Source: the human T2T-CHM13v2.0 reference genome, Homo sapiens. From it: DNA of 64,000 nucleotides. How positions within the stretch are numbered: the first letter of the stretch is position 1; each line of letters opens with the position of its first letter. Made by a program: the position numbers and the translations under genes. The stretch lies in assembly GCF_009914755.1 (NCBI RefSeq), contig NC_060935.1. One strand, 5' to 3'. The notes beneath the pieces are model-generated. The model searched no databases and was not told where the DNA came from. It worked only from the letters and a program-made list of their open reading frames with translations. This document shows, piece by piece, positions 3,786-41,074 of this stretch.

Positions 3786-3800
3786 TTATGAAACTGTCCA
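3786..3800 (-). CDS. SVIP: SVIP coding part of terminal exon 4, WTVS-stop
   Basis: Long polypyrimidine tract, then tcttttctag|TGG ACA GTT TCA TAA. Total 18+17+38+4 = 77 aa. Confidence 0.96.
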   Translation of the reverse strand, partial: WTVS

Positions 3801-4074
3801 CTAGAAAAGATAAAAAAGAGACAGAAAAGTAAATTTTACTTGAAGTTATATAACAGTACTTCAGTGAACAAACAGGTAAAAAGAGGAATATGGGACATAG
3901 AAATACAAAATGATTTTTCTGAATAGCAGCTATTCATAAAATTTTACATTATAGTCCAAAGCCTGAAATAAGATGATAGTTTAAAAGCATAAAGAAGACA
4001 AAATATCTGGTCAGATTGGTGGGTAGTTGCAGGATAGCTCTGTCTCACTGTCTTGCCTGTAGTTTTCAAGAGTA

Positions 4075-4790
4075 ACTGTAGAATGTGCTGGGAATGTAAC
4101 ATCCTGGGATAGCAAATGAATGGCCAAGGACAGCTCAAGTTCTGTTCCAGTCCCTCCCTAAAGACAGGACGTCCTTCAATGCTTTAGCCCAAGGAGTCAT
4201 GTAGTACCTCCCCTTCTAACCCCCAGGTCATAAAACCCAGGGCACTCATCTGAGGTTCAAGTGGGGCACACACAGATGTCATCAACCCCAGGCAGTTTTC
4301 CTTGGGAGACAAGCTTATAATGAATCCTAGGCTTCTGTTGTCCCTTGTTGCCAATCTGTAAGTAATAAACTCACTCCACGTTAAATGTTTTTGGTTTTGT
4401 TTTGGGATTTTCTTGAGACAGGGTCTCACTCTATCGCCCAGGCTGGGGTGAGGTGGGAATGGCTCACTGCAGCCTTAACCTCGCAGGCTCAAGTCATTCT
4501 CCCACCTCAGCCTCCCGAAAAGCTAGGACCACAGGCACATGCCACCACACCTAATTTATTTTTTATTTTTGTAGAGACAGGGTCTCGCTATGTTGCCCAG
4601 GCTGGTCTCTTAACTCCTGACCTCAAGTGATCATCCCATCTTCTCAGCCTCCCAAAGCCTTCCTCTCACAGCTGAGATTACACGTGTGAGTGACTGTGCT
4701 CAGCCTCTTCATGCAAATGTTACATGCATGAGTATTCTGTCCACTGGACTCTGAAGTTGGTAACCACTGCACAGTGAACCTGCTATTCAG
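4075..4790 (+). mobile_element. Old solo LTR (probably ERVL class, LTR40/MER54-like), split by an Alu
   Basis: TATA-like cataaaacccaggg ~4228 and aataaa ~4364. LTR-like sequence resumes after the Alu. Family assigned from memory only. Confidence 0.55.
4388..4706 (-). mobile_element. Alu (AluJ-like)
   Basis: T-rich tail then gagacagggtctcact...gctcactgcagcctt...ctcccaaag. Confidence 0.9.
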
Positions 4791-5088
4791 TAGCAAGAGC
4801 CTAAATATCCAATAATCAGTAAAGGAACACAAAATAAAACACAACAAAACAAAAATTTAAAAATTCTTGTTTGAGCCAGGGAGTCAAGAAATGGCAGAAA
4901 CCATTAAAAAATGGTTTGGCAAGGTCTTTTCCTTCTTGAGTTAAGAAAATATTCCATTTGCCCCTTTGTTTAATGAAGTCTATTAAATCTGTGATAGGTC
5001 CTGAAGAGCCATTAGGATAGAACCAGAGATATTTGGCAATCTCTTGATAGTGTTTTCCAAGTACATCCAAGGAATATTATTGGGTGTT

Positions 5089-5190
5089 TTATATATATAT
5101 ACACACACACATATATATATATATACATATATATACGTATATATATATGTATATATATACGTATATATATACACACACATATATATAAAA
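5089..5190. repeat. (TA)n/(CA)n microsatellite
   Basis: Visible dinucleotide runs. Confidence 0.9.
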
Positions 5191-5407
5191 TCTATGTTTA
5201 AATAAATTTTCAACATTAAAGATTAATCCAAGTAAACTTGCTTTTCTTCATTGTACAATTTCTTAGAGGCCATAATTCTGTGCCTTTTTTAGTCTCTAAG
5301 AAGGGGATATAGTCTACAATATACAATTTAGCATTTTTAAACATTTATTCCCATGGGACTCTATCTTCCAAAACATCTCTCTTAGGACAAGTGTTATAAA
5401 CGCTAGG

Positions 5408-5580
5408 ATAGTGATTCTCAATCTGGGTTCACATTAGATTACCTTGGGAAGCTTAAAACAGTCCTGATGGCTAAACCCTACTCTCAGAGACTGACTGGTG
5501 TGAGGTGGAGCCCAATGAACAATCCTTTTTGAAAGCTGCCTATGAAACTCCAACATGCAGCTAAGGTGGAAAGCCATTGT
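5408..5580. mobile_element. MER5-type hAT-Charlie DNA transposon
   Basis: agtgattctcaa...cacattaga...ggtgtgaggtggagccca...aaagccattg pattern. Confidence 0.6.
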
Positions 5581-38573: not shown

Positions 38574-38678
38574 TAGGAGTCCTGGTTCTGGAATAGGAGA
38601 AGGCCTTGAAAACCTTTTATTCAGTCTCCTCTTCTCTTTCTTTAGGTGTTGCATATTCTGAATACGTTTATTTGCAAG
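38574..38678 (-). CDS. CCDC179: CCDC179 coding exon 3, [35 protein letters not shown]
   Basis: tttttctaaag|CTT GCA AAT ... CTC CTA|gtaagtat. 105 nt, phase 0/0. Embedded in ORF 38535..38801. Basic, helix-like segment. Confidence 0.92.
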
Positions 38679-39229
38679 CTTTAGAAAAATTAAAATGAAA
38701 GAAAAATCATACTTTTTTGTAACATATAAAGGTAACATTCTGATTACATTTTTGGTTTGTGTCAATAAAAAAGGTAAACACCACCACTGCAAACGGTTCA
38801 CATAACTACATAGAAATAGGGCGAAAAATCTCTTTCATTCAAATGTATGGTTCATAGGTGAAGAAAACCACATTGGAGCATCAGTAGGGTTTTCAAATAA
38901 GACTATTCTTGATTCTCATCTTACCACTGCATACACTTAAGTAGATCCAGACTCATGGATTAGTGTGCTTACTTTTGCTTTAAAAATAATGTTCATTAAG
39001 GACACCTAGGGAATTTTCTCTATAGAAATATGAAAACAATTATTCACTCCTTTGAAATGTTGCATGACACACATAGCTTTTTATGCCACCATTGTGTGGC
39101 GTCTACAAGTAGCAGATACCTAGGAGATCAAACTAGAATGCTTTTAAGATAATGAAATACAGTAATAGAATAGAAAGGATATGAATAACAATAACTTTTT
39201 TTATCCACTTCCAGTGAAGTATCAATTGG

Positions 39230-39915
39230 TACAATTGCTTTGAAAACCAACTTTTTAAAAAATCCACTGATAACAGAATATAAACTTGAACAATTGCTTT
39301 GAAAACAGTGTGGCACTACTTTCTAACAATAAAAAATTTGCTTTTCCTATGATTCAACCATTACACTCCTGCCTAAATAATCAAATGGCATTCTTGTGCA
39401 TGGGGCAAGAAGATGTGTACTAGAATGTTTGCAATAGTACTATTCATTTTAGGAAAATGTAAAAATAACACAATGTCCATAAACAAGAGAAAGGATTAAT
39501 GAACTGTGATATGTTCCATGACAAAATATTGAACAGCAGTGAAAATAAAGAAACTATATACAGCAATGTAGATAAATCTTAGGAAATAATATTGAGAAAA
39601 AAGAGTAAATCATACACTAAATTTTGTGTGATCCTATGTTTATAAAGTTCAAAACCAAGCAAAAGCAAATAGTGCACTTATAGAGACACCTATGTAACAA
39701 ACTATTAAAGAAGAGGAAGAGATTGATGTAGCTAAAATTCAAGATGGAGGTTACCTCTGGGAGAGACCTTAGGAGGTAGAATAGAAAAGCATTCCCTAGC
39801 TGGATTCAGAAATACCTAATATTTTAATCCTTAAATGGGAGGCATATTGTAATTTATAAATTATATCTGCCACATCTATTTTTGTATATGTGTCAAATGT
39901 TACATTAAAAAATAA
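39230..39915 (+). mobile_element. L1ME-type 3' fragment in CCDC179 intron 2
   Basis: ctttgaaaacagtgtggca...caaccattacactcct...gtttataaagttcaaaa. Confidence 0.65.
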
Positions 39916-40104
39916 CATAAGCCATTTAGTTTACCCTAGTTAAGACCCATTCCAATAGTAGTCATTAGATCCCAGAGTCCCAAGAAATATACTGAAGTGT
40001 CTACTTAATACAAGTTCTATTATGTTAGGGACCACTACATAAAGGAACAAGTTACAAGCACAATGTTTAAACAACCAGAACCTAGTTCTTTATTTAAACA
40101 TTAC

Positions 40105-40149
40105 CTGCCGCTCAGTGACCTCTGAAGGATGATGTTGTCTTGGTCCTTC
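40105..40149 (-). CDS. CCDC179: CCDC179 coding exon 2, EGPRQHHPSEVTERQ
   Basis: tttattatatag|GAA GGA CCA AGA ... CGG CAG|gtaatg. 45 nt, phase 0/0. Confidence 0.9.
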
Positions 40150-41029
40150 CTATATAATAAACAAAATTAAAACACATTCACACAAAAAAGTCATTAAAAA
40201 CAGTAAATTAATTATTATAATAGGAAGCCTATGCTACTTTTAAATTTATGTATTATATGAATCATTTCAACTATAAGAAGCAGGTTAAAAAAACAAAAAG
40301 AAAAAAGTCAAGTTCAGAATAAAAACATCTAAGATAAAAATTGTGGTGGAAGATGGAGACGATATTATGATAAAAAAGAACCAGCTGTGAACCACCTTAC
40401 AGATAAAAGGCAGAGTATAGAGATATATTCGGGAGGGAAAGAATGTACGAGAAATCGAAAAATGCATGTTTCTGCTTCTACAGGACTTCAGTGGTGCTAT
40501 TGAGCAATCTAGTCTTCAATCTGGTTTCAAAGCCTAGGAGTAATTGGTGATGTGATTGAGATCGTATGGTTTTCTGAAGCACAGGGAGCTTGGCTGTTAG
40601 TTTTCGAGATTCTCACCACTTCCTCTATTTCTTGATTGTACCTTAAATAACTCCTCCTTCACTCGTTTTGATCCAATCTTTTAACCAGAAGACCCAAGAG
40701 CAATCTGTTCCACATCTGGCAATTGAGAACTTTATCCTGCTCCCTACTTCTGTAATTTCCACTCCACCTCCTAGGGCAGGCCAATGGGGCAGTCAACATA
40801 CAGGTGATGTACCTGACCCCTAAGCACACAGTGGGTGGAGCTTTTTCTTGTTTCAGAGGGGTCCAGCAGTCAGGATGTAGTCTGTCTACATCACCTGGAA
40901 TTTCCCAACCCCCAGCACCAAACCACATTTACAAGAGTTAGAAGCACCATGGCCAAGGCCACAGTGGCCTGGAGCTCAAGGCACAGGACAGAGTGGCAGA
41001 GTTGAGGTTGTAGGCCCCAGCAGACTCAC

Positions 41030-41074
41030 AGGGTTGACTTGGGAAGGCTCGATGTCCCAGCAATACAGGCACAT
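41030..41074 (-). CDS. CCDC179: CCDC179 coding exon 1, MCLYCWDIEPSQVNP
   Basis: cacggcATG TGC CTG TAT TGC TGG ... AAC CCT|gtgagt. 45 nt, phase 0, G at -3. Confidence 0.9.

What the first reader, a model, noticed from the sequence alone, without database searches (positions are those of the whole stretch)
3786..41074. CCDC179 looks like an unrecognised tandem paralogue of SVIP (a hidden two-gene microprotein family)
Seen in sequence: the genes are neighbours on the same strand. Both have 4 coding exons, all introns phase 0, of 18/17/38/4 versus 15/15/35/3 codons. Exon 1 starts ATG GGG CTG TGT vs ATG TGC CTG TAT, and both end in gtgagt. Exon 2 begins tag|GAA in both with Arg (AGA) at codon 4. 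Exon 3 uses the uncommon AAG acceptor in both and ends at gtaagtat in both. Peptides align: AASRGILDVQSVQEKRKK / [18 protein letters not shown] and PPPEGGLR|WTVS / PIPEPGLL|WSS. Inference: an ancient local duplication followed by rapid divergence of one copy. No intronic similarity is evident by eye and old L1M/L2/MIR insertions are not shared, which fits great age. I am not aware of this relationship being described, but I cannot check the literature.
Basis: partly seen in the sequence, partly recalled or inferred. Interest (0 to 1): 0.92.

Follow-up and report, generated by a model that had tools for sequence, protein, structure and literature searches.

The report
CCDC179 is a diverged SVIP duplicate
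The uncharacterised testis microprotein gene CCDC179 looks like an old tandem copy of its neighbour SVIP that kept the gene layout and the tail of the protein but lost the parts SVIP uses to bind the VCP/p97 machine and to anchor to membranes.

Summary
Both genes have 4 coding exons, all introns in phase 0, with 18/17/38/4 versus 15/15/35/3 codons. Both use the acceptors TAG/AAG/TAG.

The paralogy reading is supported.
- Profile-profile comparison of orthologue alignments gives 94.8-95.4% probability and E 2-5e-8, collinear over 68-69 columns. All three intron positions coincide in this sequence-only alignment.
- 0 of 800 column shuffles reach the observed score.
- The CCDC179 profile scores human SVIP at 23.8 bits. 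Its best hit among 177,635 PDB sequences is 15.0 bits.
- On chr11, 99 of 434,778 gene pairs share such an exon structure. The other 98 are named paralogues.

There are real negatives.
- Pfam's SVIP model hits 0 of 42 CCDC179 orthologues.
- Exon 2 alone shows no similarity.
- There is no DNA or intron similarity.
- The exon-level match is not significant genome-wide.

CCDC179 lacks Gly2 (0/53) and the VCP-interacting motif (0/53), so it is an SVIP derivative, not a functional SVIP. It was found in all three major placental groups. No paper in the searched library states the relationship. Gene-tree databases could not be checked.

The parts
10357..10410 (-). SVIP coding exon 1 (18 codons). Carries Met-Gly2 (myristoylation site) and Cys4/Cys7 (palmitoylation sites).
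   Evidence: Acylation sites come from PMC11310202 (passages).
8486..8536 (-). SVIP coding exon 2 (17 codons), phase 0 on both sides. Holds the core of the VCP-interacting motif: R22-x5-A28A29-x2-R32.
   Evidence: VIM at residues 18-35 per PMC11310202. Consensus Rx2h3AAx2Rh per PMC5389986. The regex is met in 14/14 SVIP sequences.
7869..7982 (-). SVIP coding exon 3 (38 codons). AAG acceptor, gtaagtat donor. Encodes a basic helix and the Pro-rich PPPEGGLR stretch.
   Evidence: It is the best off-target hit of the CCDC179 profile in the window: 18.6 bits, E 3e-4 among 3,509 six-frame pieces.
3786..3800 (-). SVIP coding exon 4 (WTVS + stop).
10464..27589 (.). 17.1-kb spacer between the 3' end of CCDC179 and the SVIP start. 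It has no select protein-coding gene. LINC02718 exons lie on the + strand.
   Evidence: The supplied annotation. No third SVIP-like exon was found in the window.
41030..41074 (-). CCDC179 coding exon 1 (15 codons). Starts Met-Cys-Leu-x-Cys and has no Gly2.
   Evidence: C2 is present in 53/53, C5 in 38/53 and G2 in 0/53 orthologues. C2 and C5 align with SVIP C4 and C7.
40105..40149 (-). CCDC179 coding exon 2 (15 codons). It sits at the position of the SVIP VIM exon. The motif is replaced by a conserved EGPRxxHPS(E/D)VTxRQ stretch.
   Evidence: The VIM regex is met in 0/53. The exon alone shows no similarity to SVIP exon 2: 69 of 150 shuffles reach the observed score.
38574..38678 (-). CCDC179 coding exon 3 (35 codons). 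AAG acceptor, gtaagtat donor. Encodes a basic helix and the PxPEPGLL stretch. This is the main region of similarity to SVIP.
   Evidence: exon 3+4 hhalign score 32.3, 0/150 shuffles reach it. Helix 23-52 is predicted with pLDDT about 95 for residues 31-50 in the Saimiri orthologue.
28178..28189 (-). CCDC179 coding exon 4 (WSS + stop), 10.4 kb downstream of exon 3.
   Evidence: A tail starting with W was seen in 27 of the 53 trimmed orthologues.

Best explanation
CCDC179 arose by tandem duplication of the whole four-exon SVIP gene, at the latest in the common ancestor of placental mammals. It has since diverged about three times faster than SVIP.

What it kept:
- the gene architecture (4 coding exons, all phase 0, intron positions);
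- the pair of N-terminal cysteines;
- the basic helix;
- the Pro-rich ...PEPGLLW(S/T) tail that resembles SVIP's ...PPPEGGLRWTVS.

What it lost:
- Gly2, so it cannot be N-myristoylated;
- the Ala-Ala core of the VCP-interacting motif, where a new conserved motif (PEGPRxxHPSEVTxRQ, with an invariant Pro) now sits.

Inferred mechanism. CCDC179 is a spermatid-expressed SVIP derivative that no longer docks as a VIM helix into the p97/VCP N-domain cleft. It is not anchored the way SVIP is. It retains whatever the VCP-independent C-terminal half of SVIP does.

Shown here: the homology signal, the shared architecture, and the loss of the two motifs. Inferred: loss of VCP binding, changed localisation, and a retained tail function.
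For: Sequence:
- hhalign of 53 CCDC179 against 10 SVIP sequences: probability 94.8%, E 5e-8, CCDC179 1-68 against SVIP 3-76.
- An independent run on alignments without human rows (27 against 14 sequences): 95.4%, E 1.9e-8, 69 columns.
- Observed score 40.6. Global column shuffles have mean 10.4 and max 19.4 (0/400 reach it). Within-exon shuffles have max 23.6 (0/400). The reversed alignment scores 13.3.
- By part: exons 3+4 score 32.3 (0/150 shuffles), exon 1 scores 14.1 (0/150, shuffle max 14.0), exons 1+2 score 18.4 (0/150, shuffle max 14.7).
- Real-protein control. The best of 177,635 PDB sequences scores 15.0 bits with the CCDC179 profile and 17.2 bits with the SVIP profile. 8 of 10 SVIP sequences exceed 15.0 (human 23.8 bits, E 3.5e-4 at that database size). 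18 of 53 CCDC179 sequences exceed 17.2.
- In the window's six frames, SVIP exon 3 is the only off-target hit of the CCDC179 profile (18.6 bits, next best 8.0).

Gene structure:
- All three exon boundaries coincide in the sequence-only alignments.
- Of 434,778 pairs of chr11 genes with at least 3 coding exons, 99 share exon number, phases and exon lengths within 3 codons. The other 98 are same-name families such as HB, LDH, TRIM, PGA, SCGB, MMP.
- SVIP and CCDC179 are the only two of the 35 chr11 proteins of 100 aa or less that have 4 coding exons all in phase 0.
- Both use acceptors TAG/AAG/TAG. AAG was 8/457 in the sample.

Synteny: mouse, and the same contig or consecutive locus tags in other mammals.

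Age: orthologues were found in Boreoeutheria, Tamandua (Xenarthra) and Tenrec (Afrotheria).

Functional inference:
- G2 is present in 0/53 CCDC179 and 14/14 SVIP sequences. R-x5-AA-x2-R is met in 0/53 against 14/14.
- In SVIP, myristoylation at G2 is required for palmitoylation, and the G2A mutant becomes diffuse and nuclear (PMC11310202).
- The VIM binds the p97 N domain as a helix (PMC5389986).
- AlphaFold2 predicts helices 18-38 and 44-63 for SVIP, but only 23-52 for CCDC179.
- A fly SVIP C-terminal mutant still binds VCP in vitro yet disrupts tubular lysosomes. So the tail has a VCP-binding-independent role (PMC7820495).
- CCDC179 is listed among top genes of a spermatid component in a human testis single-cell atlas.
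Against: - The curated Pfam SVIP model PF15811 matches 0 of 42 CCDC179 orthologues at E<=10, and not the human protein. In human SVIP it matched residues 2-63 only, which leaves out the C-terminal tail.
- Exon 2 alone has no detectable similarity.
- DNA identity in the aligned block (49/99) is equalled by other in-frame offsets.
- Intron flanks show nothing beyond splice consensus: 362/2000 and 497/2000 shuffles reach the observed score.
- Genome-wide six-frame searches do not recover the cross hit. Unrelated loci reach 18-24 bits with the CCDC179 profile. The one inspected looks like an Alu tail plus poly-A read in frame (the Alu reading is my recall).
- The SVIP profile gives CCDC179 exon 3 only 6.2 bits (E 2.6) in the window scan.
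- Human CCDC179 scores 16.7 bits against the SVIP profile, just below the best PDB chance hit of 17.2.
- The alignments are shallow (Neff 1.5-2.2), and the similar region is a Lys/Arg/Glu-rich helix.
- The pair was picked by eye among many neighbouring gene pairs.
- The 3-codon tolerance in the structure control was set after seeing the pair.
- The Atlas search gave nothing.
- No non-mammalian SVIP was available to root a tree.
Confidence: 0.87

Rival explanations
1. Mosaic or partial origin. Only part of CCDC179 (exons 3-4, perhaps exon 1) derives from SVIP. Exon 2 was recruited from other sequence or arose de novo.
For: Exon 2 alone gives no similarity: hhalign score 5.3, reached by 69/150 shuffles. 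It carries its own strongly conserved motif with an invariant Pro23.
Against: - Exon 2 sits at the same place, with phase 0 on both sides and a similar length (15 against 17 codons).
- It starts with GAA and has AGA as codon 4 in both genes.
- In the full-length alignments its E16, R19, R29 and Q30 pair with SVIP E19, R22, R32 and Q33 without internal gaps. These are the two signature arginines of the VIM at the right spacing.
- [RK]-x9-[RK]Q is kept in 42/53 orthologues.
- Divergence in place is the simpler account.
Confidence: 0.08
2. Chance or convergence. These are two unrelated microprotein genes that happen to be neighbours, both with a basic helix and a Pro-rich tail. The similarity reflects composition and small size.
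For: - Pfam gives no link.
- There is no DNA-level signal.
- Exon-level scores lie within genome-wide noise.
- The region is charged and of low complexity.
- The pair was selected by eye.
Against: - Order-dependent similarity: 0 of 800 column shuffles reach the score, including shuffles that keep each exon's composition.
- The N-terminal part adds its own weak signal.
- Cross scores exceed every one of 177,635 real PDB sequences for 8/10 SVIP and 18/53 CCDC179 sequences.
- Three of three intron positions and phases coincide.
- The chr11 structure control returned no unrelated pair.
- The two genes are adjacent on the same strand, and this is conserved in mouse.
Confidence: 0.06

Closest known systems
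[quoted passage not shown]
   Same: - The neighbouring gene on the same strand.
- 4 coding exons, all phase 0, with matching intron positions.
- An N-terminal Cys pair.
- A basic helix, then a Pro-rich stretch ending G-L-(L/R)-W-(S/T).
- Full-length profile-profile match of 95%.
   Different: - No Gly2 (0/53).
- No R-x5-AA-x2-R VIM (0/53).
- No Pfam PF15811 match (0/42).
- 9 residues shorter.
- Evolves faster: 58-69% identity to human against 81-89% in the same species.
- Found only in placentals here, whereas SVIP is reported from zebrafish and Drosophila (PMC4568590; PMC7820495).
- Spermatid-associated expression.
Somatic gene plus testis-biased tandem duplicate, e.g. LDHA/LDHC on the same chromosome
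   Same: Adjacent, same strand, same exon-phase structure. LDHA/LDHC is one of the 24 adjacent chr11 pairs returned by the same structure filter. One copy is broadly used and the other is germ-line biased. The testis specificity of LDHC is recalled, not tested here.
   Different: The LDH copies keep identical exon lengths and obvious sequence identity, and they keep the enzyme's function. CCDC179 has diverged to the edge of detectability and lost SVIP's two defining motifs.
Other VIM-bearing p97 cofactors (gp78/AMFR and others, as reviewed in PMC5389986)
   Same: Only through SVIP. The segment of CCDC179 aligned to the VIM keeps the two flanking arginines at the right spacing in 32/53 orthologues.
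   Different: The Ala-Ala core is replaced by (E/D)-V and preceded by an invariant Pro. The region is not predicted helical before residue 23. It does not meet the motif.

Membership tests
SVIP family, by descent (paralogue of SVIP) | Significant full-length profile-profile similarity to SVIP orthologues | tested here: met
   hhalign gave 94.8% with E 5e-8 and 95.4% with E 1.9e-8. 0/800 column shuffles reach the score. E-values are for one comparison, not for a database.
SVIP family, by descent (paralogue of SVIP) | Shared intron positions and phases | tested here: met
   3 of 3 boundaries coincide, all in phase 0. chr11 control: 99 of 434,778 pairs match, and the other 98 are named paralogues.
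SVIP family, by descent (paralogue of SVIP) | Conserved linkage to SVIP in other species | tested here: met
   Human window. Mouse table in PMC6378724. Only placentals were seen.
SVIP family, by descent (paralogue of SVIP) | A rooted gene tree places CCDC179 inside or beside vertebrate SVIP | not testable with these tools
   No non-mammalian SVIP sequence could be fetched. With only placental and opossum SVIP the unrooted tree cannot date the split.
SVIP as defined by Pfam PF15811 | Match to the curated model at or above its gathering score (27 bits) | tested here: not met
   Human SVIP scores 53.2 bits. Human CCDC179 has no hit at E<=10. 0 of 42 orthologues hit.
SVIP as a p97/VCP cofactor | VCP-interacting motif Rx2h3AAx2Rh | tested here: not met
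   The R-x5-AA-x2-R regex is met in 0/53 CCDC179 and 14/14 SVIP sequences. Consensus from PMC5389986.
SVIP as a p97/VCP cofactor | N-terminal Gly2 for myristoylation | tested here: not met
   G2 is present in 0/53 and C2 in 53/53. G2 is required in SVIP (PMC11310202).
SVIP as a p97/VCP cofactor | N-terminal cysteines that can be palmitoylated | tested here: inconclusive
   C2 (53/53) and C5 (38/53) align with SVIP C4 and C7. Whether they are acylated without prior myristoylation is unknown.
SVIP as a p97/VCP cofactor | Physical binding to the p97 N domain | not testable with these tools
   Needs a pull-down or ITC experiment.

The most novel reading that the evidence does not exclude
CCDC179 is a natural separation-of-function version of SVIP. 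It is a placental-specific spermatid microprotein that has shed VCP binding and myristoyl anchoring. It keeps SVIP's conserved C-terminal module, whose VCP-binding-independent importance is shown by the fly tail mutant. It uses that module on the acrosome or other lysosome-related membranes, possibly by competing with SVIP for the tail's unknown partner. If true, it would give a handle on what the SVIP tail binds.
Probability: 0.15. Interest if true: 0.7.

Novelty: new variant of a known kind. Interest (0 to 1): 0.5.

Why it matters
SVIP is a studied regulator of VCP/p97 in ER-associated degradation, autophagy and lysosome dynamics. VCP is a disease gene.

CCDC179 has no described function. 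In the papers found it appears almost only in locus gene lists, plus one list of top genes of a spermatid expression component. Placing it as an SVIP derivative has several uses:
- It gives CCDC179 a testable starting hypothesis.
- It shows that placentals carry a second, germ-line-biased copy lacking the VCP-binding motif.
- It offers a natural comparison for working out what the conserved C-terminal half of SVIP does.

It is also a worked example of how tiny, fast-evolving genes escape family databases. Gene structure plus profile comparison recovers the link where Pfam does not.

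Tried and rejected
Approaches that led nowhere or gave negatives:
- Genome-wide six-frame searches with single proteins and with profiles did not recover the cross hit. The exon-level score (18.6 bits) is within genome noise.
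- The chr3 hit of 24 bits was inspected. I read it as an Alu 3' end plus poly-A translated in frame (recalled). I considered an Alu origin for exon 2 and rejected it, because exon 2 is conserved in bats, carnivores, Tamandua and Tenrec. That Alu-type elements are confined to primates and their near kin is recalled.
- The Pfam scan of 42 orthologues gave 0 SVIP hits. The weak hits to 13 unrelated families (best E 0.002, at most 3 members each) I take as noise.
- The ESM Atlas gave scores of at most 0.77, which is uninformative.
- DNA-level comparison of exon 3 and 300-bp flanks, and of 37-60-nt intron ends, showed no signal.
- A PDB sequence search with SVIP found no solved SVIP chain.
- A gene tree to date the duplication was considered and not run. 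With placental SVIP, one opossum SVIP and CCDC179 there is only one unrooted topology, so it cannot tell a pre-therian from a placental-stem duplication.
- The low score of opossum SVIP against the CCDC179 profile (4.2 and 6.5 bits) is likewise not decisive.
Tamandua scored 19.1 bits against the A5 SVIP profile and Tenrec 12.5 bits against the earlier 10-sequence SVIP profile, both mid-field. All placental lineages are equally old relative to the duplication.
No statement of paralogy was seen. Supplements are closed, so tables there (for example paralogue lists) were not seen. The in-vitro binding figure S8 of PMC7820495 is known to me only through the main text.

Full report
**What is in the sequence.**

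From the RefSeq select transcripts and the window letters, both genes lie on the minus strand.
- SVIP is coded by window 10357-10410, 8486-8536, 7869-7982 and 3786-3800. That is 18, 17, 38 and 4 codons plus stop.
- CCDC179 is coded by 41030-41074, 40105-40149, 38574-38678 and 28178-28189. That is 15, 15, 35 and 3 codons plus stop.
- All six introns are in phase 0.
- The three acceptors read TAG, AAG, TAG in both genes.
- The genes are neighbours with no select coding gene between them. CCDC179 lies upstream of SVIP in the direction of transcription, 17.1 kb apart (and the annotation).

**Is the protein similarity real?**

*Pairwise and family scans.* BLASTP finds one ungapped block, SVIP 44-75 against CCDC179 36-67. 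It has 11/32 identities, 28.9 bits and E 5e-7 for that one comparison. Pfam recognises SVIP (PF15811, 53.2 bits) but nothing in CCDC179.

*Orthologues collected.* I collected orthologues, which used all three searches. CCDC179 was found in many Boreoeutheria, in Tamandua and in Tenrec. SVIP was found in placentals and in Monodelphis.

*Profile-profile comparison.*
- 53 trimmed CCDC179 sequences against 10 canonical SVIP sequences gave probability 94.8%, E 5e-8, score 41.8. The match is collinear, CCDC179 1-68 against SVIP 3-76.
- The session's own hhalign, on alignments built only from fetched non-human proteins (27 against 14), gave 95.4%, E 1.9e-8, 69 columns.

*Shuffle controls.* Shuffling the CCDC179 alignment columns gave a mean of 10.4 and a maximum of 19.4. 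Shuffling within exons only, which keeps each exon's composition, gave a maximum of 23.6. The observed score was 40.6, so 0 of 400 reach it in each case. The reversed alignment scored 13.3. The signal therefore lies in residue order, not in composition.

*Where the signal sits* (150 shuffles each):

| Part | Observed score | Shuffles reaching it |
|---|---|---|
| Exons 3+4 | 32.3 | 0/150 |
| Exon 1 | 14.1 | 0/150 (shuffle max 14.0, so marginal) |
| Exons 1+2 | 18.4 | 0/150 (shuffle max 14.7) |
| Exon 2 alone | 5.3 | 69/150, no signal |

*Calibration on real proteins.* Against 177,635 distinct PDB sequences the CCDC179 profile reaches at best 15.0 bits (MLKL). The SVIP profile reaches at best 17.2 bits (Tom5).
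- The CCDC179 profile scores 8 of 10 SVIP sequences above 15.0. Human SVIP scores 23.8 bits, E 3.5e-4 at that database size.
- The SVIP profile scores 18 of 53 CCDC179 sequences above 17.2. Human CCDC179, at 16.7 bits, falls just short.

*Window scan.* I scanned all 3,509 stop-free six-frame pieces of the window. The CCDC179 profile finds its own three exons and then SVIP exon 3 (18.6 bits, E 3e-4), with the next piece at 8.0 bits. The reverse scan does not single out CCDC179 exon 3 (6.2 bits, E 2.6). No third copy is present.

**Negatives that must be weighed.**
- Pfam's SVIP model hits 0 of 42 CCDC179 orthologues at E<=10. In human SVIP it matched residues 2-63 only. That leaves out the tail, where similarity is strongest.
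- Whole-genome six-frame searches with the proteins and with the profiles do not return the cross hit.
- Unrelated loci reach 18-24 bits with the CCDC179 profile. The one I inspected reads like an Alu tail plus poly-A in frame (that identification is my recall).
- So one exon's similarity is not significant genome-wide. The case rests on the full-length collinear match in a small, pre-defined comparison, plus the gene structure.
- At DNA level the aligned block is 49/99 identical, and other in-frame offsets reach the same value.
- Intron ends next to exon 3 show nothing beyond splice consensus. 362/2000 and 497/2000 shuffles reach the observed score, and no blastn hit has E below 0.1.
- The Atlas search was uninformative.

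**Gene structure as independent evidence.**

In both profile alignments, which know nothing of exons, the three exon boundaries fall together:
- P15|E16 with L18|E19;
- Q30|L31 with E35|A36, with a two-residue gap at the boundary;
- L65|W66 with R73|W74.

Controls on chr11 select transcripts:
- Phase 0 makes up 44% of coding introns.
- 8 of 77 genes with four coding exons are all phase 0.
- Of the 35 proteins of 100 aa or less, only SVIP and CCDC179 have four coding exons all in phase 0.
- I asked for the same exon number, the same phases and every coding exon within 3 codons. That tolerance was chosen after seeing this pair.
- 99 of 434,778 pairs of genes with at least 3 coding exons pass. 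The other 98 are same-name families: globins, LDH, TRIM, pepsinogens, secretoglobins, SLC22A, UCP, MMP, SAA, PRG, GLYAT, FADS, PLAAT, NXPE, PATE.
- This control has little power for microproteins as such, because chr11 has no other four-exon ones.
- AAG acceptors were 8 of 457 in 20 gene-dense 10-kb stretches covering 31 genes. That sample is GC-rich and probably understates AAG in this AT-rich region.

**Linkage and age.**
- In mouse, Svip (51.99 Mb) and 1700015G11Rik (52.01 Mb) are adjacent between Gas2 and Luzp2 (Table 2 of PMC6378724, passage seen). That 1700015G11Rik is the mouse Ccdc179 gene is my inference: one source gives that name to the Phodopus orthologue (P0095), and the alias itself is recalled.
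- In tarsier, both proteins map to a contig of the same length (236,620 bp).
- In Cervus hanglu, the two genes carry consecutive locus tags.
- CCDC179 was found in Boreoeutheria, Xenarthra and Afrotheria, so the copy existed in the placental ancestor.
- No marsupial or non-mammalian CCDC179 turned up. The search works by shared 5-residue words and shows only named sources (632 candidates were left out), so absence is not shown.
- SVIP itself is reported from zebrafish (PMC4568590) and Drosophila (PMC7820495).
- I had no non-mammalian SVIP sequence, so I could not root a tree. The upper bound of the age is open.

**Rates.** The table gives identity to human in the same species.

| Species | SVIP (%) | CCDC179 (%) |
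|---|---|---|
| Molossus | 89 | 69 |
| Myotis myotis | 84 | 69 |
| Phodopus | 82 | 62 |
| Perognathus | 88 | 59 |
| Suricata | 86-89 | 61 |
| Peromyscus leucopus | 83 | 64 |
| Mesocricetus | 81 | 58 |

Mean column identity is 87% for 15 SVIP sequences against 69% for 27 CCDC179 sequences. CCDC179 still has invariant positions across 42 sequences: M1, C2, V13, P23, Q30, K46, K51, F53 and P58. This argues for a constrained coding gene. I could not compute dN/dS.

**How it probably works.**

*What is known of SVIP.*
- It is myristoylated at G2 and palmitoylated at C4 and C7.
- Myristoylation is needed for palmitoylation.
- The G2A mutant becomes diffuse and nuclear.
- The VIM spans residues 18-35 (PMC11310202, passages).
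- The VIM consensus is Rx2h3AAx2Rh. It binds as a helix in the cleft of the p97 N domain (PMC5389986).

*What CCDC179 shows.*
- G2 is absent in 53/53 sequences.
- C2 (53/53) and C5 (38/53) align with SVIP C4 and C7.
- The VIM regex is met in 0/53 sequences, against 14/14 SVIP sequences.
- In the alignment the two signature arginines pair (R19 with R22, R29 with R32). The Ala-Ala core is (E/D)-V, preceded by an invariant Pro.
- AlphaFold2 on orthologue alignments predicts helices 18-38 and 44-63 for SVIP (mean pLDDT 69.9). For CCDC179 it predicts one helix, 23-52 (mean 74.8, about 95 for residues 31-50), with the first 22 residues not helical.

*Inference.*
- I infer that CCDC179 has lost canonical VCP binding and SVIP-type anchoring.
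- It keeps the basic helix and the Pro-rich G-L-(L/R)-W-(S/T) tail.
- That tail matters in SVIP independently of VCP binding. The fly mutant of the last, conserved serine still binds VCP in vitro but dominantly disrupts tubular lysosomes (PMC7820495, sections 15-16; the binding figure is in a supplement I could not see).
- CCDC179 is listed among top genes of a spermatid-associated component in a human testis single-cell atlas (bioRxiv 10.1101/2023.09.23.558896, passage). It was not detected in mouse fat.
- A role at the acrosome or another lysosome-related compartment is my speculation.

**Comparison with what is known, and novelty.**
- By descent, CCDC179 fits as a paralogue of SVIP.
- By the features that define SVIP as a family and as a p97 cofactor (Pfam model, Gly2, VIM), it fails three tests. 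So I do not file it as an SVIP, but as a diverged derivative.
- No paper in the searched library states the relationship. 21 papers mention CCDC179 and 9 mention both genes. These look like locus or gene lists in the listings, and in the four I opened.
- Searches combining SVIP with paralog, duplication or testis terms gave nothing relevant.
- None of the 70 CCDC179 entries carries a precomputed Pfam domain, apart from one fusion model.
- I could not consult gene-tree or family databases, which may already join them.

**Verdict.** It is a new variant of a known kind, of moderate interest.

Noticed in passing
window 38535-38573 (-), directly after the CCDC179 exon 3 donor: Reading through the exon 3 donor gives 12 more codons and a stop ([12 protein letters not shown]). 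Of the 61 fetched CCDC179 models in which a tail could be read (65 examined), 15 continue with VS. 10 of the 61 carry an ...LK(L/I/F)T... tail, in primates, ruminants, a river dolphin, horse, a bat and a mole-rat. So the first 36 or so intron bases are conserved across orders. This could be an alternative C-terminus or a splicing element. The SVIP intron shows no matching sequence beyond gtaagtat.
   Followed up: partly
proteins P0047, P0048, P0063, P0064 (rhinoceros, sheep, fin whale): Four predicted proteins join CCDC179 exons (1+3 or 1-3) in frame to SVIP exons 2-4 or 3-4. The all-phase-0 layout allows this. They may be read-through transcripts or gene-prediction merges. No such transcript is annotated in this human window.
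   Followed up: no
G000 chr1:97338394-97338544 (+), outside the window: An intronless SVIP-like stretch covers SVIP residues 27-77 across the exon 2/3 and 3/4 junctions, with stop codons (40.9 and 34.2 bits). It is probably a processed SVIP pseudogene.
   Followed up: no
L021 = G000 chr3:139097523-139097753 (-): This is the best genome-wide off-target hit of the CCDC179 profile (24-25 bits, positions 17-51). It reads like the 3' end of an Alu plus its poly-A tail in one frame (my recall of Alu-derived peptides). It is a reminder that abundant repeats set the noise level for such short profiles.
   Followed up: partly
window 3779-3800, 983-1003 and 9957-10016 (-): RefSeq SVIP isoforms include three variants:
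- an acceptor 7 nt downstream of the main exon 4 acceptor, which changes the tail WTVS to FHKA;
- a distal last exon, giving the tail ENGHEL;
- an alternative first coding exon that removes the acylated N-terminus (MEFGAKRH...).
All of them alter the N- or C-terminal modules discussed here.
   Followed up: no
window 30045-30145 and 37287-37304 (-): Gnomon models of CCDC179 use extra exons between exons 3 and 4. The 30045-30145 exon (tail SQMFFKEM...) also appears in orang-utan and drill predictions (P0001, P0005), so it may be a primate alternative exon.
   Followed up: no
window 10076-10273 (+) against 10357-10463 (-): LINC02718 starts inside SVIP exon/intron 1 territory on the opposite strand. 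This is a divergent promoter arrangement. The lncRNA then runs across the whole CCDC179 gene in antisense (from the annotation supplied).
   Followed up: no
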